A stretch of 64,000 nt of DNA from a virus (lineage: Duplodnaviria; Caudoviricetes), in IMG/VR virus record IMGVR_UViG_3300021964_009400, one strand, 5' to 3'. Below are positions 4,681 to 50,990 of the stretch, one piece after another. The position numbers and the translations under genes were made by a program. The notes under the pieces are model-generated. The model saw only the letters and a program-made list of their open reading frames with translations, was not told the origin of the DNA and made no database searches. Position 1 is the first letter of the stretch; every line of letters starts with the position of its first letter.

Positions 4681-5898
4681 ATGAATGAAATTAAAAAAGG
4701 TTATGTTCCAAATGAGGTTTACAAAGTTGAACAATTTGGTAACACTTTTAAATTAATTGACACAGCTGGTGTAAAAGTTGGTACTTTGGGTGCTACAACT
4801 GGTGTTAGGAAAAAGGCTTTCCAACAAGGAAAAGCTGTTCAAGCTTACATTACAAAAAATGGTAAGAAAATGTACAAAAAAGTGGATATGGATGTTTACA
4901 ACGCATTGGTTATTCCTATGAATACAGACCAAGGTGGTGTTCAGTTCGAAGATAAGAATGACCACACTGCTATTAAAGATTTTATCCACAAAGGTTCTGT
5001 TCAACTTAAACCACAAGAGTTGGTTATGGAAGAACTTAAGTGGAAGTATCTAATCAGGTCAGCAGTTAGGGCTAAAAATATAATGATGACTGGTCCAAGT
5101 GGTTGTGGAAAAACTATGGCCTCTAAGGCATTAGTGAAAGCTTTAGATAGACCAGATTTCTACTTTAACCTTGGTGCTACTCAAGACCCGAGAGCTACTT
5201 TAATTGGCAATACTCACTTCGATAAACAAAAAGGTACATTCTTTTCAGAATCAGCTTTTGTTACGGCAATCAAAACTCCAAATGCTGTAATTCTTTTAGA
5301 TGAGTTATCGAGAGCTCATCCAGACGCTTGGAATATCTTAATGACTGTTCTTGACCAAGGACAAAGATACTTGAGATTAGATGAGGCTGAAGGTTCACCA
5401 ATTGTGAATGTGGCTGAAGGTGTTACTTTCATCGCTACTGCTAACATTGGTAATGAATATACTTCAACAAGAGTTATGGATAGAGCAATCTTAGATAGAT
5501 TTGTTACTATCGAAATGGATGTTCTTGATGATGTTAAAGAATTAGGATTACTTAAGTTTATGTTTCCAGAAGTTAACGAAGATGATTTGAAAGCAATCGC
5601 TGAGATATCTCACCACACTAGAACTCAATCAATGAGTGAAAATGGTAAACTAACTTCAATGGTTTCCACTAGAGCATCAGTTGAGATGGCTGGTTTAATC
5701 TACGATGGTTTCGAACTTAACGAGGCTGCTGAGATTTCAATCTACCCATTCTTCTCACAAGATGGTGGTGTTGATTCTGAAAGAACTTACATTAAACAAT
5801 TGGTACAGAAGTATCAAAAAGATGAAAATGGTGAACCTCTATTCAATGATGTAGAGGAAAACCAAAAAGAGAATGAGGATGATATTCCTCAGTTTTAA
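4681..5898 (+). CDS. MoxR-family AAA+ ATPase (CbbQ/NirQ/CobS-like)
   Basis: Walker A GPSGCGKT, Walker B ILLDELSRA, sensor IATANIG, DRAILDRF. Confidence 0.9.
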   Translation: MNEIKKGYVPNEVYKVEQFGNTFKLIDTAGVKVGTLGATTGVRKKAFQQGKAVQAYITKNGKKMYKKVDMDVYNALVIPMNTDQGGVQFEDKNDHTAIKDFIHKGSVQLKPQELVMEELKWKYLIRSAVRAKNIMMTGPSGCGKTMASKALVKALDRPDFYFNLGATQDPRATLIGNTHFDKQKGTFFSESAFVTAIKTPNAVILLDELSRAHPDAWNILMTVLDQGQRYLRLDEAEGSPIVNVAEGVTFIATANIGNEYTSTRVMDRAILDRFVTIEMDVLDDVKELGLLKFMFPEVNEDDLKAIAEISHHTRTQSMSENGKLTSMVSTRASVEMAGLIYDGFELNEAAEISIYPFFSQDGGVDSERTYIKQLVQKYQKDENGEPLFNDVEENQKENEDDIPQF

Positions 5899-34066: not shown

Positions 34067-35875
34067 ATGAACGAGGTTGAAAAAAGAATAAAACATCAAA
34101 TAGATAATAACATTGCTCAAACTGATTTAAAGATTGATTTGGTTCAATATATGTCTCAATCAAAAAGAGCAAAAGATTATTACCTCAAACAAAAGGCAAA
34201 GGGTGAGGAGTTTAAACATCAATTCCGATATGAAGTTATTGGAGAACAAGATGCTCTTTTGATGCAAGTACCAAATATAAACGAATCGGGTTATTACGCG
34301 GGGGTTGTTGCCTTAAAATCATATGTGGATAAGTTCCACTCGGATTTGAATGTTGAGATTATAGACCCGGTCATAGATTACTTTTATTTAAATCCACCCG
34401 ATAAAGAATCCGATTTCTTTCAAATGTTTAACACCTACGCAAGACAAGGTGAATGGGAAGAACTTCTTAAGTTCCAAGAAATACACGATATATGTGAAGG
34501 GTTTATTTTTAAATACATTGATAAATGTAATCCTGCATTTTTTGGTTTAAGTATTATTGATGGTAACATAGACGCATCTCTTGCAATAGCAAGTTTAATA
34601 AAAAAGAAATACCCTCATATTAAAATTCTTATGGGTGGTAATGGAATCGAGGTTTTAGATTTCGGTATGTTACCTAACTCAAAATACACTACAATAGATT
34701 ATAATTTTGTAGATGTATTCTCAAGAGGTGATGGTGAAGCAACATTCGTAGAGATTCTTAAATGTGATATGAGTGATGAATCTCTTTCAAAGATAAAAGG
34801 GATTGTTTGGAGAAAATCAACTGGTGAACATATAGATACTCCAATGGAATTAACTCATAATCCATCGAGAGAAAATATAGATATGAACTCACTTCCAATG
34901 CCTGATTATTCATCTTTGGAAGAAAACTATTATTACCACTCTACATACCAATATTCAGTTCCACTTGTATTAAGTAGAGGATGTCCTTATCGTTGTACCT
35001 TTTGTTCGGTACCTGAATTTATACCTGTATTCCGATATAGAACTCACGAAAGTGTTATGGAAGAAATGGAGTATTGGGTAAATAAGGGAAGAAAAAGTTT
35101 CTTTATGCACGATAGTATTATAAATGGAAACCCAAAATGGTTAATGCAATTTTGTGAAATGATAATCGATAAATGGGGTGAGTACCAAATTGATTTTGGT
35201 GGAAATATGAGATTGCAGAATGTAATGAGAGATTTGGATACTATGTGGTTATTCCGAAGAGCGGGGTTATCTAAAATGATTACTGGTTTTGAATCGGCAT
35301 CTGAACCTGTTTTAAAACATATGAAGAAATATACAAACATGGAAGGTGTACGAGAAATCTTTGATAATGTACGAAGTATAAATAAAGTATTACAAAAAGA
35401 AAGACCTCACGCACCAAAGATGCAATTTGCAATGCAACTTATTATTGGTTATTTAAATGAAACGCGAGAAGATTTTCAACGAACAGTTGATTTCGTAAAA
35501 GAATATAATGATTGTATGTCAGAGATACTCACTTGTTCTGCATTTTTATTACACACTACACTACAAAATAAATGGATAGCAGAGGGAGAACCTCTTATCC
35601 AACATAGGAACTCTGTTATATTTGATACCATGTACAACACTACACAAGATAGATTAAATTGGTTAAATGAAATAGAACAGGTTTTTAAAGATTATAATCT
35701 ACCATACTCTATTTACAATCGAGGAATATTCCACGAACTTATGAAAGAGAATGAAACAGCACAAGAACATTACACATGGATAAATGGAGAATTGTTTTTT
35801 GGCGCAAATGGAGAGAAACCAACACTAGATATGATACACGAAGAGTTGGGAATTAAAAAGAAAAAATTAATGTAA
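34067..35875 (+). CDS. cobalamin-binding radical SAM protein
   Basis: B12-binding-like ALKSY...FGLS...ILMGG; SRGCPYRCTFC (CxxxCxxC); GFESAS. Confidence 0.85.
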   Translation: MNEVEKRIKHQIDNNIAQTDLKIDLVQYMSQSKRAKDYYLKQKAKGEEFKHQFRYEVIGEQDALLMQVPNINESGYYAGVVALKSYVDKFHSDLNVEIIDPVIDYFYLNPPDKESDFFQMFNTYARQGEWEELLKFQEIHDICEGFIFKYIDKCNPAFFGLSIIDGNIDASLAIASLIKKKYPHIKILMGGNGIEVLDFGMLPNSKYTTIDYNFVDVFSRGDGEATFVEILKCDMSDESLSKIKGIVWRKSTGEHIDTPMELTHNPSRENIDMNSLPMPDYSSLEENYYYHSTYQYSVPLVLSRGCPYRCTFCSVPEFIPVFRYRTHESVMEEMEYWVNKGRKSFFMHDSIINGNPKWLMQFCEMIIDKWGEYQIDFGGNMRLQNVMRDLDTMWLFRRAGLSKMITGFESASEPVLKHMKKYTNMEGVREIFDNVRSINKVLQKERPHAPKMQFAMQLIIGYLNETREDFQRTVDFVKEYNDCMSEILTCSAFLLHTTLQNKWIAEGEPLIQHRNSVIFDTMYNTTQDRLNWLNEIEQVFKDYNLPYSIYNRGIFHELMKENETAQEHYTWINGELFFGANGEKPTLDMIHEELGIKKKKLM

Positions 35876-39360: not shown

Positions 39361-39486
39361 ATGACCTATGGTGAGGCATCTCATCATATAGGTAAAAAAA
39401 CTACTGAGAAAGTTCATAAATCAAAAAAGGATTATTCTCGTAAAGGTAAATCAAAAAGAGATTGGATAAGTTATGAAGATGAATAA
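39361..39486 (+). CDS. small basic protein (41 aa)
   Basis: MTYGEASHHIGKKTTEKVHKSKKDYSRK. Confidence 0.6.
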   Translation: MTYGEASHHIGKKTTEKVHKSKKDYSRKGKSKRDWISYEDE

Positions 39487-39973
39487 AAGAGAATTACTAC
39501 TTGTAGGATTTGTTATTATGGCGGTGTTGGTAAGATTATTACCACATCCACCAAACTTTACACCAATAACAGCACTTGCTTTATTCGGTGGAACAACATT
39601 TAAAAACAAGTGGTTGGGTATCTCTTTACCTTTAATAGCAATGGGGATATCTGATATGTATTTAGGTTTCTATGGTATCTCTTATTGGGTATATGGTTCG
39701 TTCTTTCTTATTAGTATATTAGGAACCTATTGGAAAAAGATAAGGGTTAAGAATGTATTTATTTCATCACTTATCTTTTTTATTATTACCAACTTTGGAG
39801 TTTGGTTAATGGGTGGTTATCCAAAAACAATAGAAGGAATTCTATTATGTTATACAATGGCATTACCATTCTTTCTTAACTCTATTGCTGGAGATTTCTT
39901 TTTCAGTTATCTATTGAAATTTTCATTTAGATATTCTGAAAAGAAAATATTGCTCGGTTCGTCTAACGGTTAG
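39473..39973 (+). CDS. DUF6580-like putative transport membrane protein
   Basis: RLLPHPPNFTPITALALFGG, FFIITNFGVW, CYTMALPFF; last codons overlap tRNA-Glu. Confidence 0.7.
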   Translation: MKMNKRELLLVGFVIMAVLVRLLPHPPNFTPITALALFGGTTFKNKWLGISLPLIAMGISDMYLGFYGISYWVYGSFFLISILGTYWKKIRVKNVFISSLIFFIITNFGVWLMGGYPKTIEGILLCYTMALPFFLNSIAGDFFFSYLLKFSFRYSEKKILLGSSNG

Positions 39974-40023
39974 GACCTCAGGTTTTCATCCTGGTAATAG
40001 GGGTTCGATTCCCCTACCGAGTA
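39952..40023 (+). tRNA. trnE: tRNA-Glu(UUC)
   Basis: Acceptor GCTCGGT/ACCGAGT, anticodon arm TCAGG-TTTTCAT-CCTGG, T-loop GTTCGATT. Confidence 0.9.
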
Positions 40024-40069
40024 CAACTATTGTTCATTGAAATATTGTTTAATTAAAAAAAAGAAAATT

Positions 40070-40432
40070 ATGGAAACACTTTATATTGTAATAGGTGCAT
40101 TCTCATCCATCTTTATATTCCTTTTGGGGTATGCGGTGAGTGGTGTATTTAATGGAAAAAAGCGATTAAATTATTTAGAATCCTATATAGAGGATGCTGA
40201 AATACAAATAGCAAATCTCAATAGAGATATTAACGAAAGAGTTAATATTGATGTTGAGATGTTATCTGGTAATATTACTGAATTAGATAGAGATGTTCAT
40301 TCTCTAATTGATTCAAGGTTAGATAAATTAGAAAGTAAATTGAAGGAAATGATTCCACCTACCAACGAAGAGTTGATAAAACGAATCAAAAAAATAGAAG
40401 AAGAATCTTACAGATTAAGAATGAATATGTAA
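40070..40432 (+). CDS. membrane-anchored coiled-coil protein
   Basis: N-terminal TM helix, heptad-like tail; ATG 40070. Confidence 0.65.
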   Translation: METLYIVIGAFSSIFIFLLGYAVSGVFNGKKRLNYLESYIEDAEIQIANLNRDINERVNIDVEMLSGNITELDRDVHSLIDSRLDKLESKLKEMIPPTNEELIKRIKKIEEESYRLRMNM

Positions 40433-40455
40433 GATATTAAATTGAACGATAGTTA

Positions 40456-40543
<88 letters not shown>

Positions 40544-40544
40544 T

Positions 40545-40618
40545 GGGGGATTAGCTCAGCTGGCTAGAGCACTTGATTTGCATTCAAGAGGTCATCGGTT
40601 CGACTCCGATATCCTCCA
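40545..40618 (+). tRNA. trnA: tRNA-Ala(UGC)
   Basis: GGGGGAT/ATCCTCC with G3:U70; CTTGA-TTTGCAT-TCAAG. Confidence 0.9.
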
Positions 40619-40638
40619 CTAATTTAAATTAATTAATT

Positions 40639-40857
40639 ATGAAAAATCTATTAGTATTATTTTTTATAACATCAATCTTTGTTAGTTGTACTGACAAAAA
40701 GAAAGATAAAAAAGTATGTGATGTTTGTAAAAAACAAATGACAGAAGAAGTTGTAACAGATTCAAATTCGGTAAAGTTAGAAGGTTTGATAAATGCAGAT
40801 ACTACCGAATTGGAAACACCAACTCCTGAAGTTGTAGAAGAAGTTATTAATCAATAA
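40639..40857 (+). CDS. small lipoprotein
   Basis: Signal peptide ending FVSC (lipobox). Confidence 0.6.
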   Translation: MKNLLVLFFITSIFVSCTDKKKDKKVCDVCKKQMTEEVVTDSNSVKLEGLINADTTELETPTPEVVEEVINQ

Positions 40858-40866
40858 TAAATTCAA

Positions 40867-40940
40867 GCCTTTGTAGCTCAGCTGGCTAGAGCAGCTGATT
40901 TGTAATCAGCAGGTCGTGGGTTCGAGTCCCTCCGAAGGCT
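40867..40940 (+). tRNA. trnT: tRNA-Thr(UGU)
   Basis: GCCTTTG/CGAAGGC, GCTGA-TTTGTAA-TCAGC, GTTCGAGT. Confidence 0.95.
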
Positions 40941-40953
40941 CTTAATAAATAAA

Positions 40954-41852: not shown

Positions 41853-42962
41853 ATGGCATATAAATTACCTAATATTGATAGTGGATTAATTACTGATATA
41901 AGTGGACAACTTTTATCAGATAATAGTGAAATGATAATTGAAAAAGGTGGTGGTAGTAGTATTTCTAAACCAACCCTATCAAACATATTAAGACCAATTC
42001 AAGATGTTTCGCTTCCAAGTCCAAACACAAAGCCAGAAAATAAAAAACCACAACCATCTTTAGCAAGACCAGAAATAGAACAAGATATCGTTAGTGATGA
42101 AAATGTAGATACGGTATCTGAGGTGTTAGGTGTTAGTAGTTTACCATACATTCAAAACCCATATCCAACAGAAGTAGGAACTGACCCATCTCCAAACTAC
42201 ACAGTAAAGGACGAAGCAATAACATTTACAGGCAAATATTCAGAAAACTTTTTAGAGTTTAAAACAAAAAATATTGATGATATACTTTCATTAAACATTA
42301 ATGAATATCCAACAAGTTTTAATTTTATAGTAGAATTTGTAAATGGTAATGAAAGAGATTATTATGCATCACCTATTTTATTAGGAGAATTAAAGGCAGA
42401 GTTAAACGCCGGTAATCCCTATAAAAACCGAACTACTATTCCTGTTATTAAATTTGATTTTTCATTTATAGAAAACTATTCAAAGGAAGCTCAATTTAAA
42501 ATACCTGAAGATTATGCAGAAGTTACAGTTACAAAAACTTTAACAACTAAAGAAGATATTTTAAGACATATTGATTGGATGGTAAGTAGTGATGAAACAT
42601 TAAGAAGAGCAAGTGATATTGGTGCATGGAAAATTGAATTAACAAAAGAACTTGGAATGGACCATTCTAAAGAGTTAGATAATTTAAACAAAAGAATATT
42701 GAATGAAGAATCAAATATATCAGATAATTTAAATCAAAGTGGTGAAAATTTAGATGGAGATAGTGATGGTACCTCACTAGGTAATCAAAATAATGTTGGA
42801 GATTTTGATGATAATGATAATCAAAAACCAGATAATAGTTCTGGCTTACTATATCCACCATTTGGTGTGCCAGGTAGAAGGACAGGAGAACGAAGAAAAA
42901 AGGGTGGAACAACTTACAGGTGGAGTAAAGTTAGAAATACTTGGATAGTATTAAGGTCTTAA
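41853..42962 (+). CDS. hypothetical (possibly virion-associated) protein
   Basis: Pro/Ser-rich N-terminus, C-terminal YPPFGVPG...YRW; ATATTTATA upstream. Confidence 0.65.
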   Translation: MAYKLPNIDSGLITDISGQLLSDNSEMIIEKGGGSSISKPTLSNILRPIQDVSLPSPNTKPENKKPQPSLARPEIEQDIVSDENVDTVSEVLGVSSLPYIQNPYPTEVGTDPSPNYTVKDEAITFTGKYSENFLEFKTKNIDDILSLNINEYPTSFNFIVEFVNGNERDYYASPILLGELKAELNAGNPYKNRTTIPVIKFDFSFIENYSKEAQFKIPEDYAEVTVTKTLTTKEDILRHIDWMVSSDETLRRASDIGAWKIELTKELGMDHSKELDNLNKRILNEESNISDNLNQSGENLDGDSDGTSLGNQNNVGDFDDNDNQKPDNSSGLLYPPFGVPGRRTGERRKKGGTTYRWSKVRNTWIVLRS

Positions 42963-42963
42963 T

Positions 42964-43329
42964 ATGATAAACAATAATTTGTTAGCAACAACATCTTGGA
43001 GAAATTATTTACTTCCAAGAAATAAAAGAGTGAAAAACTTTTTAAAACAACGAGGTGCAGATGTTCTTTGGCAAGTATGTCAAAACATACACGAAGCGTA
43101 TCGTGATAAAAGAAGTGAGGTAGTAATACTGATACATCCAAATTTATCTCATGCTATACTAATTCCACAAAAAGATTATATTGAAGTATTAGAGGTTGGT
43201 TTAAAATATTTTACAAAACAAGAAAATTACGAAAAGTGTATTAAAATTAATGCAATCAAAATTGATATTAAAGAAAAAAGAGAACTAGGAAAGCCAATAT
43301 ATGATAAAATAAAACGAGATATATTATAA
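42964..43329 (+). CDS. hypothetical protein with UVR-like motif
   Basis: LKYFTKQENYEKCIKI. Confidence 0.6.
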   Translation: MINNNLLATTSWRNYLLPRNKRVKNFLKQRGADVLWQVCQNIHEAYRDKRSEVVILIHPNLSHAILIPQKDYIEVLEVGLKYFTKQENYEKCIKINAIKIDIKEKRELGKPIYDKIKRDIL

Positions 43330-43392: not shown

Positions 43393-45183
43393 ATGAAAGG
43401 AACATTAATATCAGCCGATTTCATTAAAGATGAAAACGAAGATTTAAGACTTTTAGAAATAAATACAGATACTGGTTTTATATCAGCATCTTTTAGTAGT
43501 TTAGATTTTACAGAATTATTCGATGTATTTACAAGTGAATCAATTGATACTGTTCATGTAATATATAAAGATTTTCATTTAGAGTTTGTTGATTATTTTT
43601 CAAGTTCATTAAACGCAGCATTAAGTTCATCTGTTACTACATTTGAAAGAGATTTGATTGAAATATGTACAATATATCCTGAATCAGTTACAGATGCAGA
43701 AAACAAATTTATCTTAAGATTAGCTTATGATGAATCAGCAATATTAGATAGTGAATACGCAAAAGATAATATAAATTTATATAAATTATATGCTGATAAT
43801 TCTGATAGTGGTTCTATCGTACCGTTTGCATATTCTTCATCTGCATTTGAACACGATAACTTAGGAGTTGATACAATTAACTCATCTTCAAACCTACCTG
43901 ATATAGCAGTTAGAAATAGTAGAATTGGACCAAAAGCAGCAATGAGTTTTTTCAAAATAGGAAACTCAACAAGTTCATCTCTTGATAGATTAAATCATAC
44001 AAAAGAAGTTTTACAAAATGATGATACTCTAATCCAAAAATATTATACAGGCGATGTTACTGCAAATAAAGTATCATCAATTAGGTCTTATAAAGTAATA
44101 TATGGAAGTGATTTAGATATTGCTACTATTGGAGAGTATGAAGTTGAAGCAATATTAGAAAAACCAACATCAATCCCAGTCGATGATAATTTAATAGTAA
44201 ATTGGCTGCCAACACACCATTACTTTGAATTTACAACTAATGAAATAAGAGTAAACTCAGAGGGTATAATTGGAGAACAAGAAGTAGTTGCAAGTGATGG
44301 GACTCATGTACCGATTTCTGGTAGTTCGATTGGTGATAGTTTAAAAGCATATTATATACATGGTGCACCTGATACTGATGAGCAGGAAATATTTAGAGAG
44401 TGGTCTCACGCAGGTTCAACTTTACCAAGTGGTTCTTATGCAACATCTTCTCAAGTTACTTTTGTTTACGAAGAACAATCTAAATATAATGCAGTTGCAA
44501 ACATAACACTTTCAAGTGGCTCATTTAGAGTATCACCATTTGTTTATTTACTTGTCTATGATAGTGTGAATAATCAAATAGTATATAGGTTCCCATATGA
44601 AATGAACACATCAGATTTTCAGTTGTTTGATGAAAGTGGTTCATTAGAAAGTATTAGTTCAATTAATATAGAAATTCTTTCAGGCTCTTATACAATGTAT
44701 AGTTTAAACTTAGAAGAAGTGGATAACTTTATATTAGCAGATGGTGGTTTATCAAGTAATGTTGTTACTCACAACTGCTTCGTTGCAGGTACTGAAATTA
44801 GTTTATCGAATGGAGATGTAAAGAATATTGAAGATATTAATATTGGAGAGGAAGTACTTACCTATAATGAAGAAAGTGAAAGTAATGAAAAAGGAACTGT
44901 TGGTAAATTAAAACAACATGAAGTTAATTCTGTAATTAGAATTACCCTTGATAACGAAAATATAATTATTACTACATCAGAACACCCATTCTATATAAAT
45001 GGAAAAGGGTGGGTTAAGGCTAGTGAGATAGAAGTTCTTGATACTTGTAAAAAAGTAAATGGAGAAGAATCCTTAGTTTCAACAGTAGATGTATTGGATG
45101 AAACACATACAGTTTATAACCTATTAAGTGTATCTGAAAATCACAACTTTTATGCAAACGGCATTTTAGTACATAACAAATAA
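43393..45183 (+). CDS. circularly permuted ATP-grasp-like protein with two tandem C-terminal Hint domains
   Basis: N-terminal SADFIKD...LLEINTDTG; later PDIAVR, LIQKYY, IRSYKV; Hint1 GIIGEQEVVASDG...VVTHN; Hint2 CFVAGTEISLSNG...TSEHPF...LVHNK-stop. Confidence 0.75.
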   Translation: MKGTLISADFIKDENEDLRLLEINTDTGFISASFSSLDFTELFDVFTSESIDTVHVIYKDFHLEFVDYFSSSLNAALSSSVTTFERDLIEICTIYPESVTDAENKFILRLAYDESAILDSEYAKDNINLYKLYADNSDSGSIVPFAYSSSAFEHDNLGVDTINSSSNLPDIAVRNSRIGPKAAMSFFKIGNSTSSSLDRLNHTKEVLQNDDTLIQKYYTGDVTANKVSSIRSYKVIYGSDLDIATIGEYEVEAILEKPTSIPVDDNLIVNWLPTHHYFEFTTNEIRVNSEGIIGEQEVVASDGTHVPISGSSIGDSLKAYYIHGAPDTDEQEIFREWSHAGSTLPSGSYATSSQVTFVYEEQSKYNAVANITLSSGSFRVSPFVYLLVYDSVNNQIVYRFPYEMNTSDFQLFDESGSLESISSINIEILSGSYTMYSLNLEEVDNFILADGGLSSNVVTHNCFVAGTEISLSNGDVKNIEDINIGEEVLTYNEESESNEKGTVGKLKQHEVNSVIRITLDNENIIITTSEHPFYINGKGWVKASEIEVLDTCKKVNGEESLVSTVDVLDETHTVYNLLSVSENHNFYANGILVHNK

Positions 45184-45194
45184 AAGAAAGAATT

Positions 45195-45332
45195 ATGGCA
45201 CAAGTTTATAAAACATTATCACCAGAGGCGGTAAAAACAAGAACAACTACACCATTAACTACTAGTGAAAAAAATCAAGTAAATTCAATACTTGGTAATT
45301 TTATAACATATTTTAAAGCAGCACATGCATAA
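45195..45332 (+). CDS. 45-aa Thr-rich peptide
   Basis: MAQVYKTLSPEAVKTRTTTPLTTSEKNQVNSILGNFITYFKAAHA; fills gap after the Hint protein. Confidence 0.7.
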   Translation: MAQVYKTLSPEAVKTRTTTPLTTSEKNQVNSILGNFITYFKAAHA

Positions 45333-45340
45333 CACTCGTT

Positions 45341-45994
45341 ATGATTTACGCTACAATGTGTGTTGGTAGTGATTGGATTAATAGATTTAAAGAAGATATA
45401 AATAAATTTTCTACCACCAATAGTTTACATATATTAACTGATGATTCAACTCAGTTTAGTAATACTGCTTCATGTTATGAATACACTAGAGATATATTTA
45501 GTTATTACGAAAAAATAAAATTCATTTTAGATTTATCGAAAACATACGAGGAAAGAATCACATACATTGATTCTGATTGGATTTCTCAATATAATACAAA
45601 CCTTAAATATGATAATTCAAGTTTATACACCTATATGATTTTTGATTTATCATCTGAAATAGATAGACCTATGTGGTTTAGTGATTTTGAAATTGAAATG
45701 AGAAATGGGAAATTATTAAATATAATAAATGAAACAGGTATTATTTCACAATATATACTAGAAGCATTAATTTCATTTCCATATCAAGAAAACATTGATG
45801 AGCTTATTGATGATTCAAAAAAACTTCAAACCTTTTTGGAAAGTACATATAAGACTGATACTAAGACAAGTAAAAGATTAAATAGATATAAAAAAGGAAT
45901 AGGATATGCAGAAGGTTGGGGAATGAGTGCACTTTGTGTGAAGTATAATATTGATATCAAAGATATTGATTGGAGAAAAAAAAGTTTAGTATAA
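45341..45994 (+). CDS. GT-A-fold nucleotide-sugar transferase-like protein
   Basis: HILTDD, YEKIK, DxD motif YIDSD. Confidence 0.5.
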   Translation: MIYATMCVGSDWINRFKEDINKFSTTNSLHILTDDSTQFSNTASCYEYTRDIFSYYEKIKFILDLSKTYEERITYIDSDWISQYNTNLKYDNSSLYTYMIFDLSSEIDRPMWFSDFEIEMRNGKLLNIINETGIISQYILEALISFPYQENIDELIDDSKKLQTFLESTYKTDTKTSKRLNRYKKGIGYAEGWGMSALCVKYNIDIKDIDWRKKSLV

Positions 45995-46488
45995 TGACAA
46001 AAAAATTAAGTAATAGCGATTTTAGTAAAATTAACGAACTACTTGATGGTGCTAAAATAATATCAAAAAAAGAATTTGATAAAAGAGTTAGTATCTTTCC
46101 AACATGGAAATTAGTAGATGAAGGTAAAGATTTTACAGATATGAAATTACAACATTACGATAATTCAAATACAGAGTTGATTGAAATACTTAATAGAATA
46201 AGTGGTTGTGCTAGTAAAGATATAACATCGTTACATACTGTAACATATACTGAAGGACACTTTTTAAGACCACATTTGGATAGAAGTTCAAAAGTAACTT
46301 TAAATATTTTATTAGAAGCTGATTGTGATGGTGGTGAATTATACATAGATGGAAAAGATAGTGGTTTAAACTTTCCTGGTGATTATGTTATATACAATGG
46401 TGGTAAGCAGGAACACGAAGTAAAACTAATAAAAAAAGGAAAAAGAAAAACTTTAATTATTTGGTACGATAAGAAAATTCTAATGTAA
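45994..46488 (+). CDS. 2OG-Fe(II) oxygenase (prolyl-hydroxylase-like)
   Basis: PHLD (HxD), GGEL, HEV, KRKTL; ATG 45994. Confidence 0.8.
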   Translation: MTKKLSNSDFSKINELLDGAKIISKKEFDKRVSIFPTWKLVDEGKDFTDMKLQHYDNSNTELIEILNRISGCASKDITSLHTVTYTEGHFLRPHLDRSSKVTLNILLEADCDGGELYIDGKDSGLNFPGDYVIYNGGKQEHEVKLIKKGKRKTLIIWYDKKILM

Positions 46489-46512: not shown

Positions 46513-47031
46513 ATGGTTAACAAAAAAGATGTTGTACAAATGAGAATTTGGGCACCCGAATTCAAACTTCCTTGTGAACTCGATTCACGATATACCTATG
46601 TGGAGGTAACTGATTTATCTTATAAATCTGATTTAAAAAAAATCATTGACAGTATTAATGAAGAATTATCCGATTGGAAAGATAGACCTGATTTGGAAAA
46701 TCTACAAAAAAGATTTGATGTAGGTTGTTCGTGTTTTATTCAATATTTTAAAGGAGAAGTATGTGGTTGGTTTTGGACATGTAATTTCTTAACTTATGAT
46801 TGGATTGAAAAAGTAAAAGATTTACCAACTCCAAACTCTAACTATTCTGGTGGAACTTATGTAATTAAAAAAGTTGCACCAAGAAATGGTGGATATCAAT
46901 TATATGCATATTGTGTTAGAGAGGTTATGAGCAGAACTGATTATGGTTATGCATATGTAGATAAATGGAATAAGGCACCAATTAGATTAAACTTTAATTG
47001 TGGTGCAACATTTATTGATAATTTATTATAA
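46513..47031 (+). CDS. GNAT-family acetyltransferase-like protein
   Basis: EVCGWFW, GGTYV, VDKWNKAPIRLNFNCG (motif B-like). Confidence 0.55.
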   Translation: MVNKKDVVQMRIWAPEFKLPCELDSRYTYVEVTDLSYKSDLKKIIDSINEELSDWKDRPDLENLQKRFDVGCSCFIQYFKGEVCGWFWTCNFLTYDWIEKVKDLPTPNSNYSGGTYVIKKVAPRNGGYQLYAYCVREVMSRTDYGYAYVDKWNKAPIRLNFNCGATFIDNLL

Positions 47032-47035
47032 AACT

Positions 47036-47698
47036 ATGACACAAAATATTAAGAAACAAGCCCCAAAGGGTAAAGTAAAATTTTCAATAACTCTATCTGA
47101 AGAACAAAAGATGGCAAAGACAAATATCTTATACCATCCTTATAATTTTGTAATGGGTAAAGCAGGTTCTGGTAAAACACTTCTTGCAGTACAAATTGCA
47201 TTAGATATGTTCTTCACAAGACAGATAAACAAAATCATTATAACAAGACCAACAGTATCAAACGAAGATAATGGATATCTACCTGGTTCGCTTGATGAAA
47301 AGATGGAACCTTGGTTAGTACCGATTCGTTCTAATATGAGAAAAGTTTACAACAAGCCAGCTATTCTACAAAAGATGGAATCAGAAGAAAGTATAGAATT
47401 AGTATCACTATCTCACTTTAGAGGAAGAACATTTGAAAATTCTTGTGTAATTGTAGATGAGTTTCAAAACTTAACTAAATCACAATTAGGAATGGTGTTG
47501 GGTAGATTAGGAAAAAAATCAACTATGATTCTTACTGGTGACCCACAACAAATTGATTTAAAGTTCCCAAATGATTCAGCAATACACGAAGTACCAAAAG
47601 TTAAAGAATCTAAATATGTTTATGCAATAACTCTTGTTGATAATCATAGACACGAGGCGTTAGATGAACTACTAAGATTGTTACAAACTTACTCATGA
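47036..47698 (+). CDS. phoH: PhoH-family ATPase
   Basis: GKAGSGKT, RPTV, GYLPG, FRGRTF, VDEFQN, GDPQQID; ATG 47036. Confidence 0.9.
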   Translation: MTQNIKKQAPKGKVKFSITLSEEQKMAKTNILYHPYNFVMGKAGSGKTLLAVQIALDMFFTRQINKIIITRPTVSNEDNGYLPGSLDEKMEPWLVPIRSNMRKVYNKPAILQKMESEESIELVSLSHFRGRTFENSCVIVDEFQNLTKSQLGMVLGRLGKKSTMILTGDPQQIDLKFPNDSAIHEVPKVKESKYVYAITLVDNHRHEALDELLRLLQTYS

Positions 47699-48324
47699 AA
47701 ATTTTAATTATAGGCATACCAAGAACAGGTAGTACATCGCTCTGGTCTAATATAATTAACTTAGGATATAGTGGTTTGAATGAACCATATAGAAGATACA
47801 ATCATAATTATTTAAAACACCCATATCCATTAGATATTTTAAAAAACGAAAAGATAGTAGTGAAGCATTTAATACACGATATACCACGAAAAAAGTATAT
47901 CGGTAATATGAGTGATATTGAAGTATGTAAGGAGATGTCAGAACAATTTGATAAAACTATTATACTTGATAGAAGAAACTCTCAAGAAATTTTGGAAAGT
48001 TATATTGGTTTATACTATAATTTAGATAACAATATGGATATTCATTCTAGTTGGGAATTTTCTAATATTCCTAAAGAATATGTAAATCAATTTATATTAG
48101 ATAATAAGCACAAATTGATTTATGATTTTAAAACAAAAATACAGACATTATCAACACTACTATCTATACCAATTACTTATTATGAAGATTTATACGGAGA
48201 AGATAGAGAACTATCTTTAAACATAATTAAATCTTGGAAACTTGATATAGATGAAGAACGATTAAACGATACATTAAATCCATTAAATCGATATAGATTA
48301 TTCCAAAAAAAATCTATAATTTAG
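47695..48324 (+). CDS. sulfotransferase-like P-loop protein
   Basis: IGIPRTGSTSL, LNEPY, RRNSQEILES, ITYYEDL. Confidence 0.65.
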   Translation: MKILIIGIPRTGSTSLWSNIINLGYSGLNEPYRRYNHNYLKHPYPLDILKNEKIVVKHLIHDIPRKKYIGNMSDIEVCKEMSEQFDKTIILDRRNSQEILESYIGLYYNLDNNMDIHSSWEFSNIPKEYVNQFILDNKHKLIYDFKTKIQTLSTLLSIPITYYEDLYGEDRELSLNIIKSWKLDIDEERLNDTLNPLNRYRLFQKKSII

Positions 48325-49390: not shown

Positions 49391-49819
49391 GTGGGTAAAT
49401 ATAAATTTGTAAATAGAAAATTCCCAAAGGAATTTCAGAGACTTGTAGATTATATCAAACTAAAAAAAGGGGTTGATGTAAAATTATCTCACATTACAAA
49501 ATATTTAGGTCCATGGAATAGAACAATATTTATACATCATAACTATGATTTAAAAAAGAATGGATTAATTGCATTGTTACATGAAATTGGTCATGTCTTA
49601 CAACCACCTACAAATGTTGGTGTTAATTCATATAAAAACATAGATATAGATAGATACCCAAGTGAATATGAAATGGGTAGGTTTCTAAACGAATTAGACG
49701 CATGGGAGCGTGGTTATAAAATACTAAAAGAATTAAATATAAAAATAAATAAAAATGATTGGAATACTCAAAAACAAGAAGCCCTTATTACTTATTGGCC
49801 TACTAATACTATTAGGTAG
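49391..49819 (+). CDS. HExxH zincin-like metallopeptidase-domain protein
   Basis: LLHEIGHV and NELDAWERG. Confidence 0.65.
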   Translation: MGKYKFVNRKFPKEFQRLVDYIKLKKGVDVKLSHITKYLGPWNRTIFIHHNYDLKKNGLIALLHEIGHVLQPPTNVGVNSYKNIDIDRYPSEYEMGRFLNELDAWERGYKILKELNIKINKNDWNTQKQEALITYWPTNTIR

Positions 49820-50990
49820 TTGTGAATACGAACCATACGAAAGTTCAGATATAGGTAAAAATCCACAAAAAGAAATTGTAAAATCAGAATCTTACTATAA
49901 CCAAAAAAGTGGAATAGTATTTAGATGGGGAGATTATCAAGGAGACCCTAATAATTCTCATTCATCAATAATGAATAACCTATCGGGTAAACAAGGCTGG
50001 TATGGTCATCAAGCATATGGTGATGTAAACAAAGATGGGTTTCAAGATATACTTACAACTCATTGGAATTCTGAATACGATAGTGATACTAATTGGTATA
50101 TTAATAGTGGAGATAATAAAACATTTACCGAAGACGCACAATATATTAACTCATCACTTAAGGGATTGGGTAATTATAAAATATTAAAAACAGATGTTAA
50201 TAATGATAGTTTAGCAGATTATGTTTTACTTGGGGTAGATGAAAGAATACCAGGTGATTATGGTGGAAACTTTACAGTATTAATTCAAAATAAACAAGGT
50301 AAGTTTGATGTTAACTCAATAGATGAAGGTAAGGGGTTGTGGTATCACACCGGAGCTAGTGGAGATTTAGATGGAGATGGGTTTGTTGATATAGTAACTG
50401 CAACTTATATTTGGTTGGGAGATGGTACAGGTAATTTTATTAATACTAATATTAGTGTTGATGATTTTGGAATTAAACCTGCATTGAGTTATGAAATACT
50501 TGATATAAACAAAGACGGGTATAATGATATTATTGTAGGAACAATGAAACCAGGACCTGATATGTATGGTAGTAATTCAAGTATAATGTTGGGTAAACCT
50601 ACTTTTGGAGAATATGATATTATTTCATTACCCACTACTGAAACAAATGCTACACTTGATTTTGAATTTTTAGATTATGATAATGATGGAGATTTAGATA
50701 TATTAGAATTAAGAAACATAAATGCTGGTATAGATACCTGGTCAGATTACTCTTACATACATTTATATGAAAATGATAATTTAACCTTTACATTGAATAA
50801 TGAATTATTTAAAGAGGCAAAAGATGGTGGGTATATGCATGGTTCTCAAGATAAACATGGTTGGTCAAGATTTAAGATTGATGATATAGATAACGATGGA
50901 GTTATGGATATTGTTGCAGAAAATTATCAAGATGGATATTACAATGGACTAAAAAAGATTGCAGGTGAGTGGAAAAAACATCGATTTTAA
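49755..50990 (+). CDS. FG-GAP/VCBS-repeat beta-propeller lipoprotein
   Basis: Lipobox LLGSC; repeated DxNxDGxxD motifs (GDVNKDGFQD, GDLDGDGFVD, DINKDGYND, DYDNDGDLD, DIDNDGVMD). Confidence 0.8.
   Translation: MIGILKNKKPLLLIGLLILLGSCEYEPYESSDIGKNPQKEIVKSESYYNQKSGIVFRWGDYQGDPNNSHSSIMNNLSGKQGWYGHQAYGDVNKDGFQDILTTHWNSEYDSDTNWYINSGDNKTFTEDAQYINSSLKGLGNYKILKTDVNNDSLADYVLLGVDERIPGDYGGNFTVLIQNKQGKFDVNSIDEGKGLWYHTGASGDLDGDGFVDIVTATYIWLGDGTGNFINTNISVDDFGIKPALSYEILDINKDGYNDIIVGTMKPGPDMYGSNSSIMLGKPTFGEYDIISLPTTETNATLDFEFLDYDNDGDLDILELRNINAGIDTWSDYSYIHLYENDNLTFTLNNELFKEAKDGGYMHGSQDKHGWSRFKIDDIDNDGVMDIVAENYQDGYYNGLKKIAGEWKKHRF

What the first reader, a model, noticed from the sequence alone, without database searches (positions are those of the whole stretch)
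43393..45183. Permuted ATP-grasp fused to two tandem Hint domains that share one Asn-Cys bond
Seen: the protein starts with what is normally the last ATP-grasp motif (DFI...LLEINTDTG) and has the earlier motifs (PDIAVR, LIQKYY, IRSYKV) later, i.e. circular permutation. Then Hint1 (~44263-44775) aligns residue-for-residue with Hint2 but has Gly at position 1 and Phe for the block-B His, while keeping terminal H-N. Hint2 (44776-45177) has Cys1, TxxH and H-N followed by Lys-stop. Established: Hint Cys1 forms a thioester at its N-terminal bond and terminal Asn cyclises to cut the C-terminal bond. So the single N|C bond at 44775/44776 is both Hint1's C-terminal and Hint2's N-terminal scissile bond. 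Inference: an auto-processing ligase that either releases Hint2 or uses the thioester to attach ATP-grasp-Hint1 covalently to a nucleophile (Hedgehog-like), an architecture I do not recognise as described.
Basis: partly seen in the sequence, partly recalled or inferred. Interest (0 to 1): 0.8.

Follow-up and report, generated by a model that had tools for sequence, protein, structure and literature searches.

The report
Phage ATP-grasp with stacked Hint domains
A large uncultured marine phage encodes a likely ATP-dependent ligase fused to a stripped-down self-cleaving (Hint) domain, and a second, mobile intein-like Hint has inserted itself exactly at the end of the first; a conserved 45-residue partner protein is encoded next door.

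Summary
The ORF at 43393-45183 (596 aa) has three domains.

- **Residues 1-265:** a confidently modelled ATP-grasp with the circularly permuted topology of eukaryotic glutathione synthetase and glutathionylspermidine synthetase. D9, E22, N24, R109 and R231 are invariant.
- **Residues 291-461:** a true Hint fold. It has Gly at position 1 and no TxxH, but E441, D444, H460 and N461 are near-invariant.
- **Residues 462-595:** a complete BIL/mini-intein-like Hint (Cys1, TxxH, HN) followed only by Lys.

More than 600 metagenomic relatives share ATP-grasp plus Hint1 ending in HN, followed by 0 to 3 canonical Hints, short basic tails or Cys-rich tails. The canonical Hints behave as mobile cassettes. 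Tandem copies are about 32% identical to each other. Yet 102 of 403 have a counterpart at 70% identity or more in a protein whose core is under 45% identical, and the flanks on both sides stay divergent. The shared N|C bond is direct in only about half of the family.

A 45-aa ORF (45195-45332) follows the gene in 86 of 86 loci and is predicted to clamp ATP-grasp to Hint1.

Best reading: a two-subunit phage ligase with a domesticated Hint, carrying a self-removing mobile Hint at its C-terminus. Substrate and processing are untested.

The parts
43393..45183 (+). Whole ORF, 596 aa (P0001): ATP-grasp + Hint1 + Hint2 + Lys + stop
   Evidence: More than 600 homologues and 261 representatives at 50% identity, all collinear from residue 1.
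43393..43476 (+). N-terminal beta-hairpin (residues 1-28) carrying D9, E22-x-N24-T25. This is the Mg/phosphate motif that closes a canonical ATP-grasp, here moved to the start.
   Evidence: Invariant D9, E22, N24 and T25 in 229-230 of 230 ungapped rows. The hairpin aligns with permuted GS/GspS/YgiC but is left out of alignments to canonical TTL and Ddl.
43393..44187 (+). Circularly permuted ATP-grasp domain (residues 1-265) of the eukaryotic-GS / GspS / YgiC topology
   Evidence: AF2 pLDDT 95.1. Foldseek PDB, VIA-align Z up to 10.3 and AFDB clusters naming GspS/GS. Conserved R109, Y112, D113, D119, Y122, K/R174, K188 and R231.
44212..44241 (+). Conserved linker motif T-H-H-Y-F-E-F-T-T-N (residues 274-283; family consensus KHYYEFxTN) just before Hint1
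   Evidence: H276, E279, T282 and N283 are conserved in 180-199 of 235. A large domain insertion in P0158 lies just upstream of this motif, which marks the domain boundary.
44263..44775 (+). Hint1 (residues 291-461): Hint fold without an N-terminal nucleophile (G291) or TxxH, with near-invariant E441, D444, H460 and N461
   Evidence: hhalign 98.4%, E 5.7e-15. AF2 pLDDT 93.2. The top 50 Foldseek PDB hits are all Hint/intein/BIL/Hedgehog. Conservation.
44359..44451 (+). Family-specific insertion in Hint1 (residues about 323-353, PDTD...W..G..LPSGS..TSS). It is more conserved than the Hint scaffold.
   Evidence: It is a gap against canonical Hints in hhalign. G341, P345, G347, S348 and S353 are conserved in 195-209 of 235.
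44773..44778 (+). N461|C462 junction: Hint1's terminal Asn directly followed by Hint2's Cys1
   Evidence: The junction is direct in 103 homologues and separated by a 1-14-residue linker in 89.
44776..45177 (+). Hint2 (residues 462-595): complete BIL/mini-intein-like Hint cassette (C462, T528-x-x-H531, H594-N595), with no homing endonuclease
   Evidence: Pfam PF14890 at 1.2e-14 and PF07591 at 1.3e-13. PDB 2lwy at 4.8e-11 and BIL2 6y75 at 4e-8. TIGR01445 and TIGR01443. Mobility statistics.
45178..45183 (+). Lys596 (the +1 residue after Hint2's Asn) and the stop codon
   Evidence: The residue after the last HN is Lys in about 165 of 171 homologues. Hint-less homologues end ...HNK or HN plus a short basic tail.
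45195..45332 (+). Conserved 45-aa partner ORF (consensus ..YK....nRt..l[ST]...K..v..i..nFi.yfKakH[SL]), 11 nt after the stop and preceded by AAGAAAGAA
   Evidence: Present 0-32 nt downstream (two cases about 90-100 nt) in 86 of 86 loci, with 57 distinct sequences. A small ORF also lies next to the Hint-less P0186 and the Cys-tail P0233: the P0186 copy keeps the IYKK motif, while the P0233 copy is divergent and was not tested for homology. Predicted complex.

Best explanation
P0001 is the large subunit of a conserved two-gene module of large uncultured marine and aquatic phages.

The constant part has three pieces.
(i) A minimal, circularly permuted ATP-grasp of the glutathione-synthetase / glutathionylspermidine-synthetase type. 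By analogy with that class it would activate a carboxylate as an acyl-phosphate and join it to an amine.
(ii) A domesticated Hint-fold domain. It has lost the N-terminal nucleophile and the TxxH motif but keeps an invariant E/D/H/N cluster ending in His-Asn.
(iii) A separately encoded 45-aa protein, predicted to clamp the two domains together.

The variable part sits exactly after Hint1's terminal Asn. Here it is one BIL/mini-intein-like Hint cassette; relatives carry 0 to 3. These cassettes are mobile between divergent host genes.

In this protein the cassette most likely removes itself after translation. Cys462 would form a thioester at N461-C462 that is resolved by hydrolysis, possibly helped or pre-empted by cyclisation of Asn461. 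Asn595 cyclisation would drop the terminal Lys. The mature enzyme would then end at Asn461.

Shown here: domain folds, conserved residues, family architecture, cassette mobility, and linkage with the small ORF together with a predicted complex. Inferred: ligase activity, self-cleavage, and the order of the cleavage steps. Substrate and biological role are unknown.
For: - **ATP-grasp fold and permutation:**
- **Enzyme-like conservation:** D9, E22, N24, T25, R109, D119 and R231 are essentially invariant across 235 homologues.
- **Hint1 is a Hint:** hhalign 98.4%, E 5.7e-15; AF2 plus Foldseek.
- **The core ends in HN whatever follows:** 226 of 235 cores, followed by 0-3 Hints, short Lys-rich tails or Cys-rich tails.
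- **Hint2 has every catalytic motif of an N- and C-cleaving Hint but +1 is Lys**.
- **Tandem Hints are old and distinct:** those within one protein are about 32% identical, 50% at most.
- **Cassettes cross between divergent cores:** 102 of 403 canonical Hints have a counterpart at 70% identity or more in a protein whose core is under 45% identical; the extreme case is 99% against 36%.
- **The window's own Hint2:** 84% identical to the second Hint of P0067, whose core is 42% identical.
- **Similarity stops at the cassette borders:** in 11 locus pairs the terminal Hint is 70-82% identical, while ATP-grasp is 39-48%, Hint1 28-48% and the downstream small ORF 27-49%.
- **Synonymous sites:** identical-codon use among identical residues is higher in the cassette (62-81%) than in the core (52-61%).
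- **Small ORF:** present in 86 of 86 loci.
- **Predicted complex:** score 0.80 against a best control of 0.01. That mark was reached by 58 of 80 solved complexes and 2 of 110 mismatched pairs, and the counts hold only roughly because my own alignments were used. The three runs agree in at least 96% of contacts and the partner's pLDDT is 89. The partner's residues 4-7 pair with Hint1 strand 424-431. Its C-terminal helix packs on the ATP-grasp sheet, on the face opposite R231.
Against: - No biochemical evidence exists for ATP binding, ligation or cleavage.
- No ATP-grasp Pfam or NCBIfam model matches, even at E 10. Structural scores are moderate (TM by query 0.41-0.49, Z about 8-10, rmsd 4-5 A) and both structures are predictions.
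- The phosphate-binding Lys174 of the family is Arg in this protein and in 10 relatives.
- Invariance of HN in Hint1, including in Hint-less members, suggests that Hint1 has chemistry of its own which this explanation does not define.
- High similarity of terminal Hints could partly reflect stronger constraint rather than transfer. The synonymous-site excess is modest in several pairs, for example 62% against 57%.
- No mechanism of mobility was identified: there is no homing endonuclease in the cassette.
- The near-universal +1 Lys is not explained by simple self-removal.
Confidence: 0.55

Rival explanations
1. Hint2 is an integral conjugation device. The Cys462 thioester is resolved not by water but by a specific nucleophile, such as a Lys epsilon-amine, a lipid or a sugar. 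ATP-grasp-Hint1 would then become covalently attached through Asn461, as in Hedgehog cholesteroylation or BIL2-mediated Ubl conjugation in Tetrahymena.
For: - Hint2's best solved relatives by sequence are BIL domains, including BIL2 of the BUBL1 locus.
- BIL2 is reported to make a Lys-epsilon isopeptide without ATP (PMC8616854).
- The +1 residue after the last Hint is Lys in about 165 of 171 homologues.
- The 45-aa partner has a near-invariant Tyr-Lys.
Against: - Family members with no canonical Hint keep the same core and the same small partner, so the constant function does not need a thioester.
- The cassettes are exchanged between divergent cores.
- There is no sterol-recognition-like or adaptor region after the Hint.
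- In the predicted complex the partner's Lys6 sits on strand 424-431. No contact with residues 455-462 was reported, although unnamed residues are uncertain.
Confidence: 0.12
2. Cargo-release model. The conserved chemistry of the family is cyclisation of Hint1's Asn461, assisted by H460, E441 and D444. It cuts off whatever lies C-terminal: basic tails, Cys-rich peptides, or Hint cassettes that exploit the site. Cleavage activates the enzyme or liberates a peptide. Hint2's own N-terminal reaction would be redundant here.
For: - H460 and N461 are present in 227-229 of 235, and E441 and D444 in 228-230 of 235, regardless of what follows.
- 24 distant members carry 30-170-residue tails right after HN, mostly Cys-rich, and 10 carry short tails.
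- In 89 members a linker separates HN from Cys1. Two separate cuts are therefore possible there.
Against: - No Hint is known to me that keeps only the C-terminal reaction as its natural role; this is from my own knowledge, not a test.
- Block-F His is replaced by Asp, so competence for Asn cyclisation is unproven.
- Cutting off a single Lys in Hint-less members (P0186 ends HNK) has no obvious purpose.
Confidence: 0.2
3. RiPP-like reading. The 45-aa ORF is a precursor peptide that the ATP-grasp modifies, by graspetide-type side-chain macrocyclisation or by C-terminal amidation. Neighbouring 2OG-Fe(II) oxygenases and other tailoring enzymes would finish the product.
For: - The ATP-grasp gene and the short ORF are strictly linked.
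- The middle of the peptide is rich in Ser/Thr with Glu and Lys.
- A 2OG-Fe(II) oxygenase lies at 45970-46488, and a homologue lies within 3 kb in 18 of 61 distinct loci.
- An earlier scan note, e1-5362808, proposed this reading.
Against: - The fold matches the GS/GspS class. RimK-type ligases, the class I recall for graspetide enzymes (my knowledge, not tested here), are not among the listed matches.
- In the predicted complex almost the whole peptide (residues 1-21 and 25-44) is buried as a clamp between the domains. Its helix lies on the sheet face opposite the catalytic Arg231, like a subunit rather than a substrate in the active site.
- The peptide is conserved along its whole length, with no leader versus hypervariable-core pattern.
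- No neighbour other than the small ORF is conserved in all 61 distinct loci.
Confidence: 0.12
4. The canonical Hint is a true class-1 intein that splices, restoring a core-HN-K product.
For: - It has Cys1, TxxH and terminal HN, and hits TIGR01445 and TIGR01443.
- Hint-less homologues end ...HNK, like an empty allele.
- The insertion lies in the most conserved site of the host protein.
- Upstream cassettes in 2- and 3-Hint proteins have a +1 Cys, which is the next Hint's Cys1.
Against: The +1 residue of the last, and here the only, cassette is Lys, not Cys, Ser or Thr. The defining transesterification step is therefore impossible. There is no homing endonuclease.
Confidence: 0.05

Closest known systems
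Eukaryotic glutathione synthetase and the glutathionylspermidine synthetase / YgiC-YjfC class of circularly permuted ATP-grasp ligases (PDB 1m0w, 2hgs, 2io7, 7uk8; also 3n6x and 3k1t)
   Same: The predicted fold is collinear from residue 1 of the phage domain (Z 7.5-10.3). An E-x-N motif on a hairpin precedes the Rossmann-like and lid parts. These enzymes join an amine to a peptide carboxylate through an acyl-phosphate (established knowledge).
   Different: There is no detectable sequence-profile match. The phage domain is much smaller, about 265 aa against 370-600, and lacks the 95-310 residues that precede the hairpin in those enzymes. It is fused to a Hint domain and is predicted to need a 45-aa partner. 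Its substrates are unknown.
Bacterial intein-like (BIL) domains, A-type (C. thermocellum BIL, PDB 2lwy), and BIL2 of the Tetrahymena BUBL1 locus (6tmm, 6y75)
   Same: These are the best solved relatives of Hint2 by sequence (4.8e-11 and 4e-8) and of Hint1 by fold. Hint2 shares Cys1, TxxH and terminal His-Asn, has no homing endonuclease, and has a non-nucleophilic +1 residue.
   Different: The cassette sits at the extreme C-terminus with only Lys after it. It is inserted directly behind another, degenerate Hint, and occurs in phage genes in 0-3 tandem copies that are exchanged between divergent hosts.
Mini-inteins (e.g. Ssp DnaB, Npu DnaE, gp41-1)
   Same: Same fold and the same catalytic blocks A, B, F and G. 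The insertion lies at the most conserved site of the host protein, empty alleles exist, and the distribution is patchy and mobile.
   Different: The +1 residue is Lys, so canonical splicing cannot occur. The C-extein is a single residue.
Hedgehog/Hog autoprocessing domains (1at0, 6tyy)
   Same: An effector-like N-terminal part is followed by a Hint whose Cys1 can form a thioester at the junction. The fold match for Hint1 is E 4e-6.
   Different: No sterol-recognition region follows the Hint. A terminal His-Asn is present, which Hog domains do not use. No secretion signal was noted.
Engineered dual-intein autoprocessing cassette (PMC4339811)
   Same: Two inteins are used together as a self-cleaving unit (from its title and abstract only).
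   Different: It is synthetic, and I did not read its design in detail. In nature the order here is a C-cleaving-type Hint followed by a complete Hint.

Membership tests
ATP-grasp superfamily, circularly permuted GS/GspS class | ATP-grasp fold | tested here: met
   AF2 pLDDT 95.1. All significant Foldseek PDB hits are ATP-grasp ligases. VIA-align Z up to 10.3 with 229 residues aligned at rmsd 5.0. AFDB clusters name GspS and GS. This is a predicted structure only.
ATP-grasp superfamily, circularly permuted GS/GspS class | Permuted order: the Mg-binding D...E-x-N hairpin precedes the N-domain, lid and remaining C-domain strands | tested here: met
   GS, GspS and YgiC align from model residue 1. 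Canonical TTL and Ddl align only from residue 44-52 to their own residue 1.
ATP-grasp superfamily, circularly permuted GS/GspS class | Conserved Mg/phosphate ligands (acidic residue plus E-x-N) and basic phosphate-binding residues | tested here: inconclusive
   D9, E22, N24, R109 and R231 are invariant. K174 is Arg in this protein. The equivalence to hGS E144/N146 is recalled from memory and was not superposed here.
ATP-grasp superfamily, circularly permuted GS/GspS class | Match to a curated sequence model (GSP_synth, GSH_synth_ATP, CP_ATPgrasp_1/2 or other ATP-grasp Pfam families) | tested here: not met
   No Pfam or NCBIfam family for residues 1-461 at E up to 10 or 1 respectively.
ATP-grasp superfamily, circularly permuted GS/GspS class | ATP-dependent carboxylate-amine ligation | not testable with these tools
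   Needs an enzyme assay.
Hint superfamily (Hint1, residues 291-461) | Hint fold | tested here: met
   hhalign 98.4%, E 5.7e-15. The Foldseek top 50 are all Hint. 2lwy gives TM 0.90 by target at rmsd 2.5.
Hint superfamily (Hint1, residues 291-461) | Nucleophile (Cys, Ser or Thr) at position 1 | tested here: not met
   G291 aligns to Cys1. Gly occupies this column in 208 of 235.
Hint superfamily (Hint1, residues 291-461) | Block B T-x-x-H | tested here: not met
   T528 and H531 of Hint2 align to S381 and V384. This column is not conserved in the family.
Hint superfamily (Hint1, residues 291-461) | Terminal His-Asn (block G) | tested here: met
   H460 in 227 of 235 and N461 in 229 of 235.
Class-1 intein (Hint2, residues 462-595) | Cys1, TxxH and terminal HN | tested here: met
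   C462, T528/H531 and H594-N595. TIGR01445 and TIGR01443 are above their cut-offs.
Class-1 intein (Hint2, residues 462-595) | +1 Cys, Ser or Thr on the C-extein for transesterification | tested here: not met
   K596. Lys in about 165 of 171 homologues.
BIL domain, A-type | Intein-like Hint with Cys1 and C-terminal HN, no endonuclease, a non-nucleophilic C-flank, and closest to BILs by sequence | tested here: met
   PDB 2lwy at 4.8e-11 is the top hit. The domain is 134 aa with no insert. PT-HINT scores 51.8 bits against a cut-off of 27.7. Membership in Pietrokovski's BIL A-type motif set itself was not tested.
PT-HINT of polymorphic toxins | A C-terminal toxin module released by the Hint | tested here: not met
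   Only Lys follows the Hint.
Hedgehog/Hog | A sterol/adduct-recognition region after the Hint, and no use of a terminal Asn | tested here: not met
   The protein ends one residue after HN.
Graspetide-type RiPP cluster | RimK-type ATP-grasp plus a precursor with a leader and a variable core bearing Thr/Ser and Asp/Glu ring positions | tested here: inconclusive
   The fold matches listed are of the GS/GspS class. The peptide is conserved throughout and predicted to be a clamp subunit. No chemistry was tested.

The most novel reading that the evidence does not exclude
The invariant His-Asn end of the domesticated Hint1, the GS-type ATP-grasp and the 45-aa partner together form a new phage protein-conjugation device. 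A reactive C-terminus is generated at Asn461, as a succinimide from Asn cyclisation or as a thioester supplied by the mobile Hint. Alternatively the ATP-grasp re-activates the freed Asn461 carboxylate as an acyl-phosphate. Either way the C-terminus is joined to a Lys amine: the conserved +1 Lys, the partner's invariant Tyr-Lys, or a host or virion target. This would be a Hint-plus-ATP-grasp analogue of ubiquitin, Pup or BUBL tagging.
Probability: 0.1. Interest if true: 0.9.

Novelty: new variant of a known kind. Interest (0 to 1): 0.64.

Why it matters
All three folds are known. The combination is not one I could find described: full-text searches for ATP-grasp together with Hint or amidoligase returned nothing relevant, and no PHROG or cultured-phage record carries the core.

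The family is large, with more than 600 proteins on viral contigs up to about 326 kb from many aquatic metagenomes. It therefore marks an unknown enzymatic activity that is common in uncultured large phages.

For intein biology it offers three things:
- a natural Hint that keeps only the C-terminal His-Asn;
- a case where mobile BIL/mini-intein cassettes stack, up to three deep, at the C-terminal junction of another Hint;
- cassettes whose +1 residue is almost always Lys.

For enzymology it offers a minimal permuted ATP-grasp that seems to borrow a helix from a 45-aa partner. It is small enough for structural and biochemical work.

Tried and rejected
- **Sequence-profile searches of residues 1-461.** Pfam, NCBIfam and PHROGs gave nothing.
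- **Single-sequence comparison of the two Hints.** BLASTP of 280-461 against 462-596 was not significant. Only the profile comparison showed the relationship.
- **Cultured phages.** tblastn against 50,697 phage records found only Hint-domain matches at under 60% identity and no core homologue. The window's helicase has no cultured relative above 39% identity, so I could not place the phage taxonomically myself.
- **A missing ATP-grasp N-terminal part encoded upstream (a split gene).** Rejected. All homologues start at the same Met, and the upstream ORFs 41853-42962 and 42964-43329 have no family hits and are poorly conserved next to the gene.
- **Cellular genomes.** The single-protein scan found no relative. 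That scan reaches only close relatives, so it does not show that the family is absent from cells.
- **The window's own whole genome.** It is not held. An HMM scan of the window found no second copy of any of the four parts.
- **Cluster-member names.** The only name found was 'intein/homing endonuclease' on one JGI entry.
- **Atlas feature search.** It gave only weak leads to ATP-grasp families, with scores of 0.85-0.92.
- **Literature.** I found no paper on this architecture. Subscription journals are not covered, so prior description cannot be excluded.
- **Recent tandem duplication as the origin of multi-Hint forms.** Rejected, because copies within one protein are only about 32% identical.
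Full report
**The gene.**
Window 43393-45183 (+) is a 596-codon ORF that starts at the first ATG of its reading frame. The window has about 29% G+C, and the ORFs scanned lie almost wholly on the + strand. It carries a tRNA cluster, dCMP deaminase, PhoH, a helicase, radical-SAM proteins and 2OG oxygenases. The identical protein occurs on a 278,535-bp metagenomic contig. The helicase has no cultured relative above 39% identity. This is therefore a large uncultured phage. An earlier scan note calls the genome a widespread marine T4-like phage; I did not test that.

**Hint2 is certain.**
Residues 462-595 hit Intein_splicing (1.2e-14), PT-HINT (1.3e-13), TIGR01445 and TIGR01443, and the C. thermocellum BIL domain 2lwy (4.8e-11). 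They contain Cys462, T528-x-x-H531 and H594-N595, followed by Lys596 and the stop codon.

**Hint1 is real but degenerate.**
A single-sequence comparison of 280-461 with 462-596 fails (E 0.2). A 75-sequence alignment of the region (A1) compared with a 71-sequence alignment of canonical Hints from the same family (A3) gives hhalign probability 98.4%, E 5.7e-15 over 135 columns. Gly291 falls on Cys1, and there is a ~23-residue insertion within residues ~323-353 (PDTD...LPSGS).

The AF2 model of 266-462 has pLDDT 93.2. All of its top 50 Foldseek PDB matches are Hint folds: BIL2 6tmm at 4.7e-9, 2lwy at TM 0.90 by target and rmsd 2.5, DnaB and DnaE mini-inteins, and Hedgehog 1at0.

Position 1 is Gly in 208 of 235 homologues. 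Block B TxxH is absent, with S381 and V384 in its place. E441, D444, H460 and N461 are conserved in 227-230 of 235.

**The N-terminal domain is a permuted ATP-grasp.**
No sequence model matches it. The AF2 model of 1-274 has pLDDT 95.1. Foldseek finds glutathionylspermidine synthetase, yeast, human and plant glutathione synthetases, YgiC/YjfC, 3n6x and 3k1t at E 3.5e-6 to 1e-3; D-Ala-D-Ala ligase is weaker.

VIA-align gives the decisive topology test.
- Permuted-class enzymes align from model residue 1. Examples are 1m0w at Z 10.3 (model 1-261 to chain 122-479), 2hgs at Z 9.5, YgiC at Z 9.4 (1-256 to 94-371) and GspS at Z 8.0 (1-255 to 310-602).
- Canonical ATP-grasps align only from model residue 44-52 to their own first residue. 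Examples are TTL at Z 5.5 (51-274 to 1-236) and Ddl at Z 5.3 (44-257 to 4-214).

The hairpin 1-24 carries D9, E22-x-N24-T25. It is thus a C-terminal element of canonical enzymes placed first, as in the eukaryotic-GS/GspS class.

D9, E22, N24, T25, R109, D119 and R231 are essentially invariant. K174 is Arg in this protein and in 10 relatives. AFDB clusters and Atlas features point the same way. The circular permutation of eukaryotic GS is established knowledge that I recall; I did not retrieve the primary paper.

**The family changes the picture.**
A word-index search found 604 homologues. An exhaustive search found 261 representatives at 50% identity. IMG/VR yielded 172 loci on contigs up to 326 kb. 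All start at the same Met.

The core ends in His-Asn in 226 of 235 aligned proteins, whatever follows:
- a canonical Hint directly after HN (103 proteins);
- a canonical Hint after a 1-14-residue linker such as AP or LIGGS (89);
- short Lys-rich tails such as K, AKSY or KPKQPKK (10);
- other tails, mostly Cys-rich, 30-170 residues long and usually ending in Lys (24).

An HMM of canonical Hints counts 1, 2 or 3 domains in 108, 161 and 8 of 310 distinct proteins, and none in 33. After the last Hint the next residue is Lys in about 165 of 171. Hint-less proteins such as P0186 end ...FHNK. The site looks like an occupied or empty insertion site, HN|K.

**The canonical Hints are mobile cassettes.**
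- Two Hints in one protein are only about 32% identical (50% at most), so they are not recent duplicates.
- 102 of 403 canonical Hints have a counterpart at 70% identity or more in a protein whose core is under 45% identical. The extreme case is 99% against 36%.
- The window's own Hint2 is 84% identical to the second Hint of P0067 (core 42%) and 80% identical to those of P0010 and P0077.
- In 11 locus pairs the terminal Hint is 70-82% identical. The ATP-grasp is 39-48%, Hint1 28-48% and the downstream small ORF 27-49%. The similarity stops at both cassette borders.
- Identical-codon use among identical residues is 62-81% in the cassette against 52-61% in the core. The clearest pair, L034/L078, shows 81% against 58%.

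This argues for more recent common ancestry of the cassettes, although the excess is modest in some pairs. No endonuclease lies within the cassette. The repeated ...(V/T)HN-coding ends on both sides of each cassette are a plausible recombination substrate; this is inference.

**A universal partner gene.**
A 43-53-codon ORF starts 0-32 nt after the stop in 84 of 86 loci and about 90-100 nt after it in the other two. These loci give 57 distinct sequences. The window copy is 45195-45332, 11 nt after the stop and preceded by AAGAAAGAA. Tyr-Lys near the N-terminus is at least 90% conserved, and the C-terminal half has the pattern nFi.yfKakH[SL].

A small ORF also follows the Hint-less P0186 and the Cys-tail P0233. 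The P0186 copy keeps the IYKK motif; the P0233 copy is divergent, and I did not test its homology. Other neighbours are only patchily conserved. A 2OG oxygenase homologue lies within 3 kb in 18 of 61 distinct loci.

The complex prediction of the full-length protein with the small protein scored 0.80 against a best control of 0.01. That mark was reached by 58 of 80 solved complexes and 2 of 110 mismatched pairs, and the counts hold only roughly because my own alignments were used. The runs agree in at least 96% of contacts and the partner's pLDDT is 89. The partner's residues 4-7 pair with Hint1 strand 424-431. Its helix (residues 25-44) packs on ATP-grasp residues 8, 10, 17-20, 23, 30-36, 117-141 and 226-255. 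On strand 226-236 only even-numbered residues make contact, which is the face opposite invariant R231. This supports, but does not show, a clamp-like subunit.

**Interpretation.**
The constant unit of the family is a GS/GspS-type ATP-grasp, a domesticated Hint ending in HN, and the 45-aa partner. The canonical Hint in this window is best read as a mobile BIL/mini-intein-like element occupying the HN|K site. It has every motif needed for thioester formation at N461-C462 and for cyclisation of Asn595. Its +1 residue is Lys, so canonical splicing is excluded, and cleavage that releases the core is the likely outcome.

It is not a conserved design, because 89 relatives have linkers at that junction.

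Three things remain unexplained: why Hint1's E/D/H/N cluster is invariant even without any cassette, why the +1 residue is nearly always Lys, and what the ATP-grasp ligates. BIL2 of Tetrahymena, a close solved relative, is reported to transfer its N-flank to a Lys epsilon-amine (PMC8616854). That keeps a conjugation reading alive at low probability.

**Verdict.**
This is a new variant built from known kinds of domains. It is abundant in uncultured phages and readily testable.

Noticed in passing
Proteins P0220, P0233, P0240, P0243, P0246, P0248, P0256 and P0261 (about 30-35 aa tails) and P0231-P0262 (up to about 170 aa); locus L086:1005-2519: Distant family members carry Cys-rich tails with 6-8 or more Cys directly after the core's His-Asn instead of a Hint. 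They usually end in Lys, for example ...HN-VCTGCSWSACGNYWCDSSCIGCGFGSGGQK. These could be self-released Cys-rich peptides.
   Followed up: partly
Protein P0158 (935 aa), about residues 270-440: A domain of roughly 170 residues is inserted between the ATP-grasp and the KHYFxxT motif before Hint1. This confirms the domain boundary. The inserted domain was not identified.
   Followed up: no
window 45970-46488 (+); L003:8366-9920; L001:8019-8567: 2OG-Fe(II) oxygenase genes (PF13640) often follow the small ORF, with three in a row in L003. A homologue of the window's copy lies within 3 kb in 18 of 61 distinct loci.
   Followed up: partly
window 45341-45994, 46513-47031 and 47695-48324 (+): Three tightly packed ORFs of 217, 172 and 209 aa around the oxygenase and PhoH have no Pfam or PHROG hit. 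An earlier scan note reads them as a GT-A-like transferase, a GNAT and a sulfotransferase. I did not test that.
   Followed up: no
window 39952-40941 (+): A cluster of four tRNA genes: Glu-TTC, Ser-TGA, Ala-TGC and Thr-TGT.
   Followed up: no
window 39473-39973 (+): A strong match to DUF6580 (E 6.2e-48), next to the tRNA cluster.
   Followed up: no
window 34067-35875 (+); L005:537-1592; L001:12065-13108: Radical-SAM proteins recur near the module in several relatives, one of them with a SPASM domain. The window's own copy is 602 aa with a weak B12-binding match, about 7.5 kb upstream.
   Followed up: no
window 4681-5898 and 49755-50990 (+): An AAA_5/CbbQ-like ATPase (phrog_249, 'porphyrin biosynthesis') and an FG-GAP repeat protein. 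An FG-GAP protein also lies just upstream of the homologous gene in L003 and L004.
   Followed up: no
P0001 compared with its near-identical cluster members (P0002, P0263-P0266, P0269): Among proteins whose cores are 96-98% identical, the Hint2 cassette is only 92-93% identical. The cassette evolves faster than the core at short range, although it is shared across distant cores.
   Followed up: no
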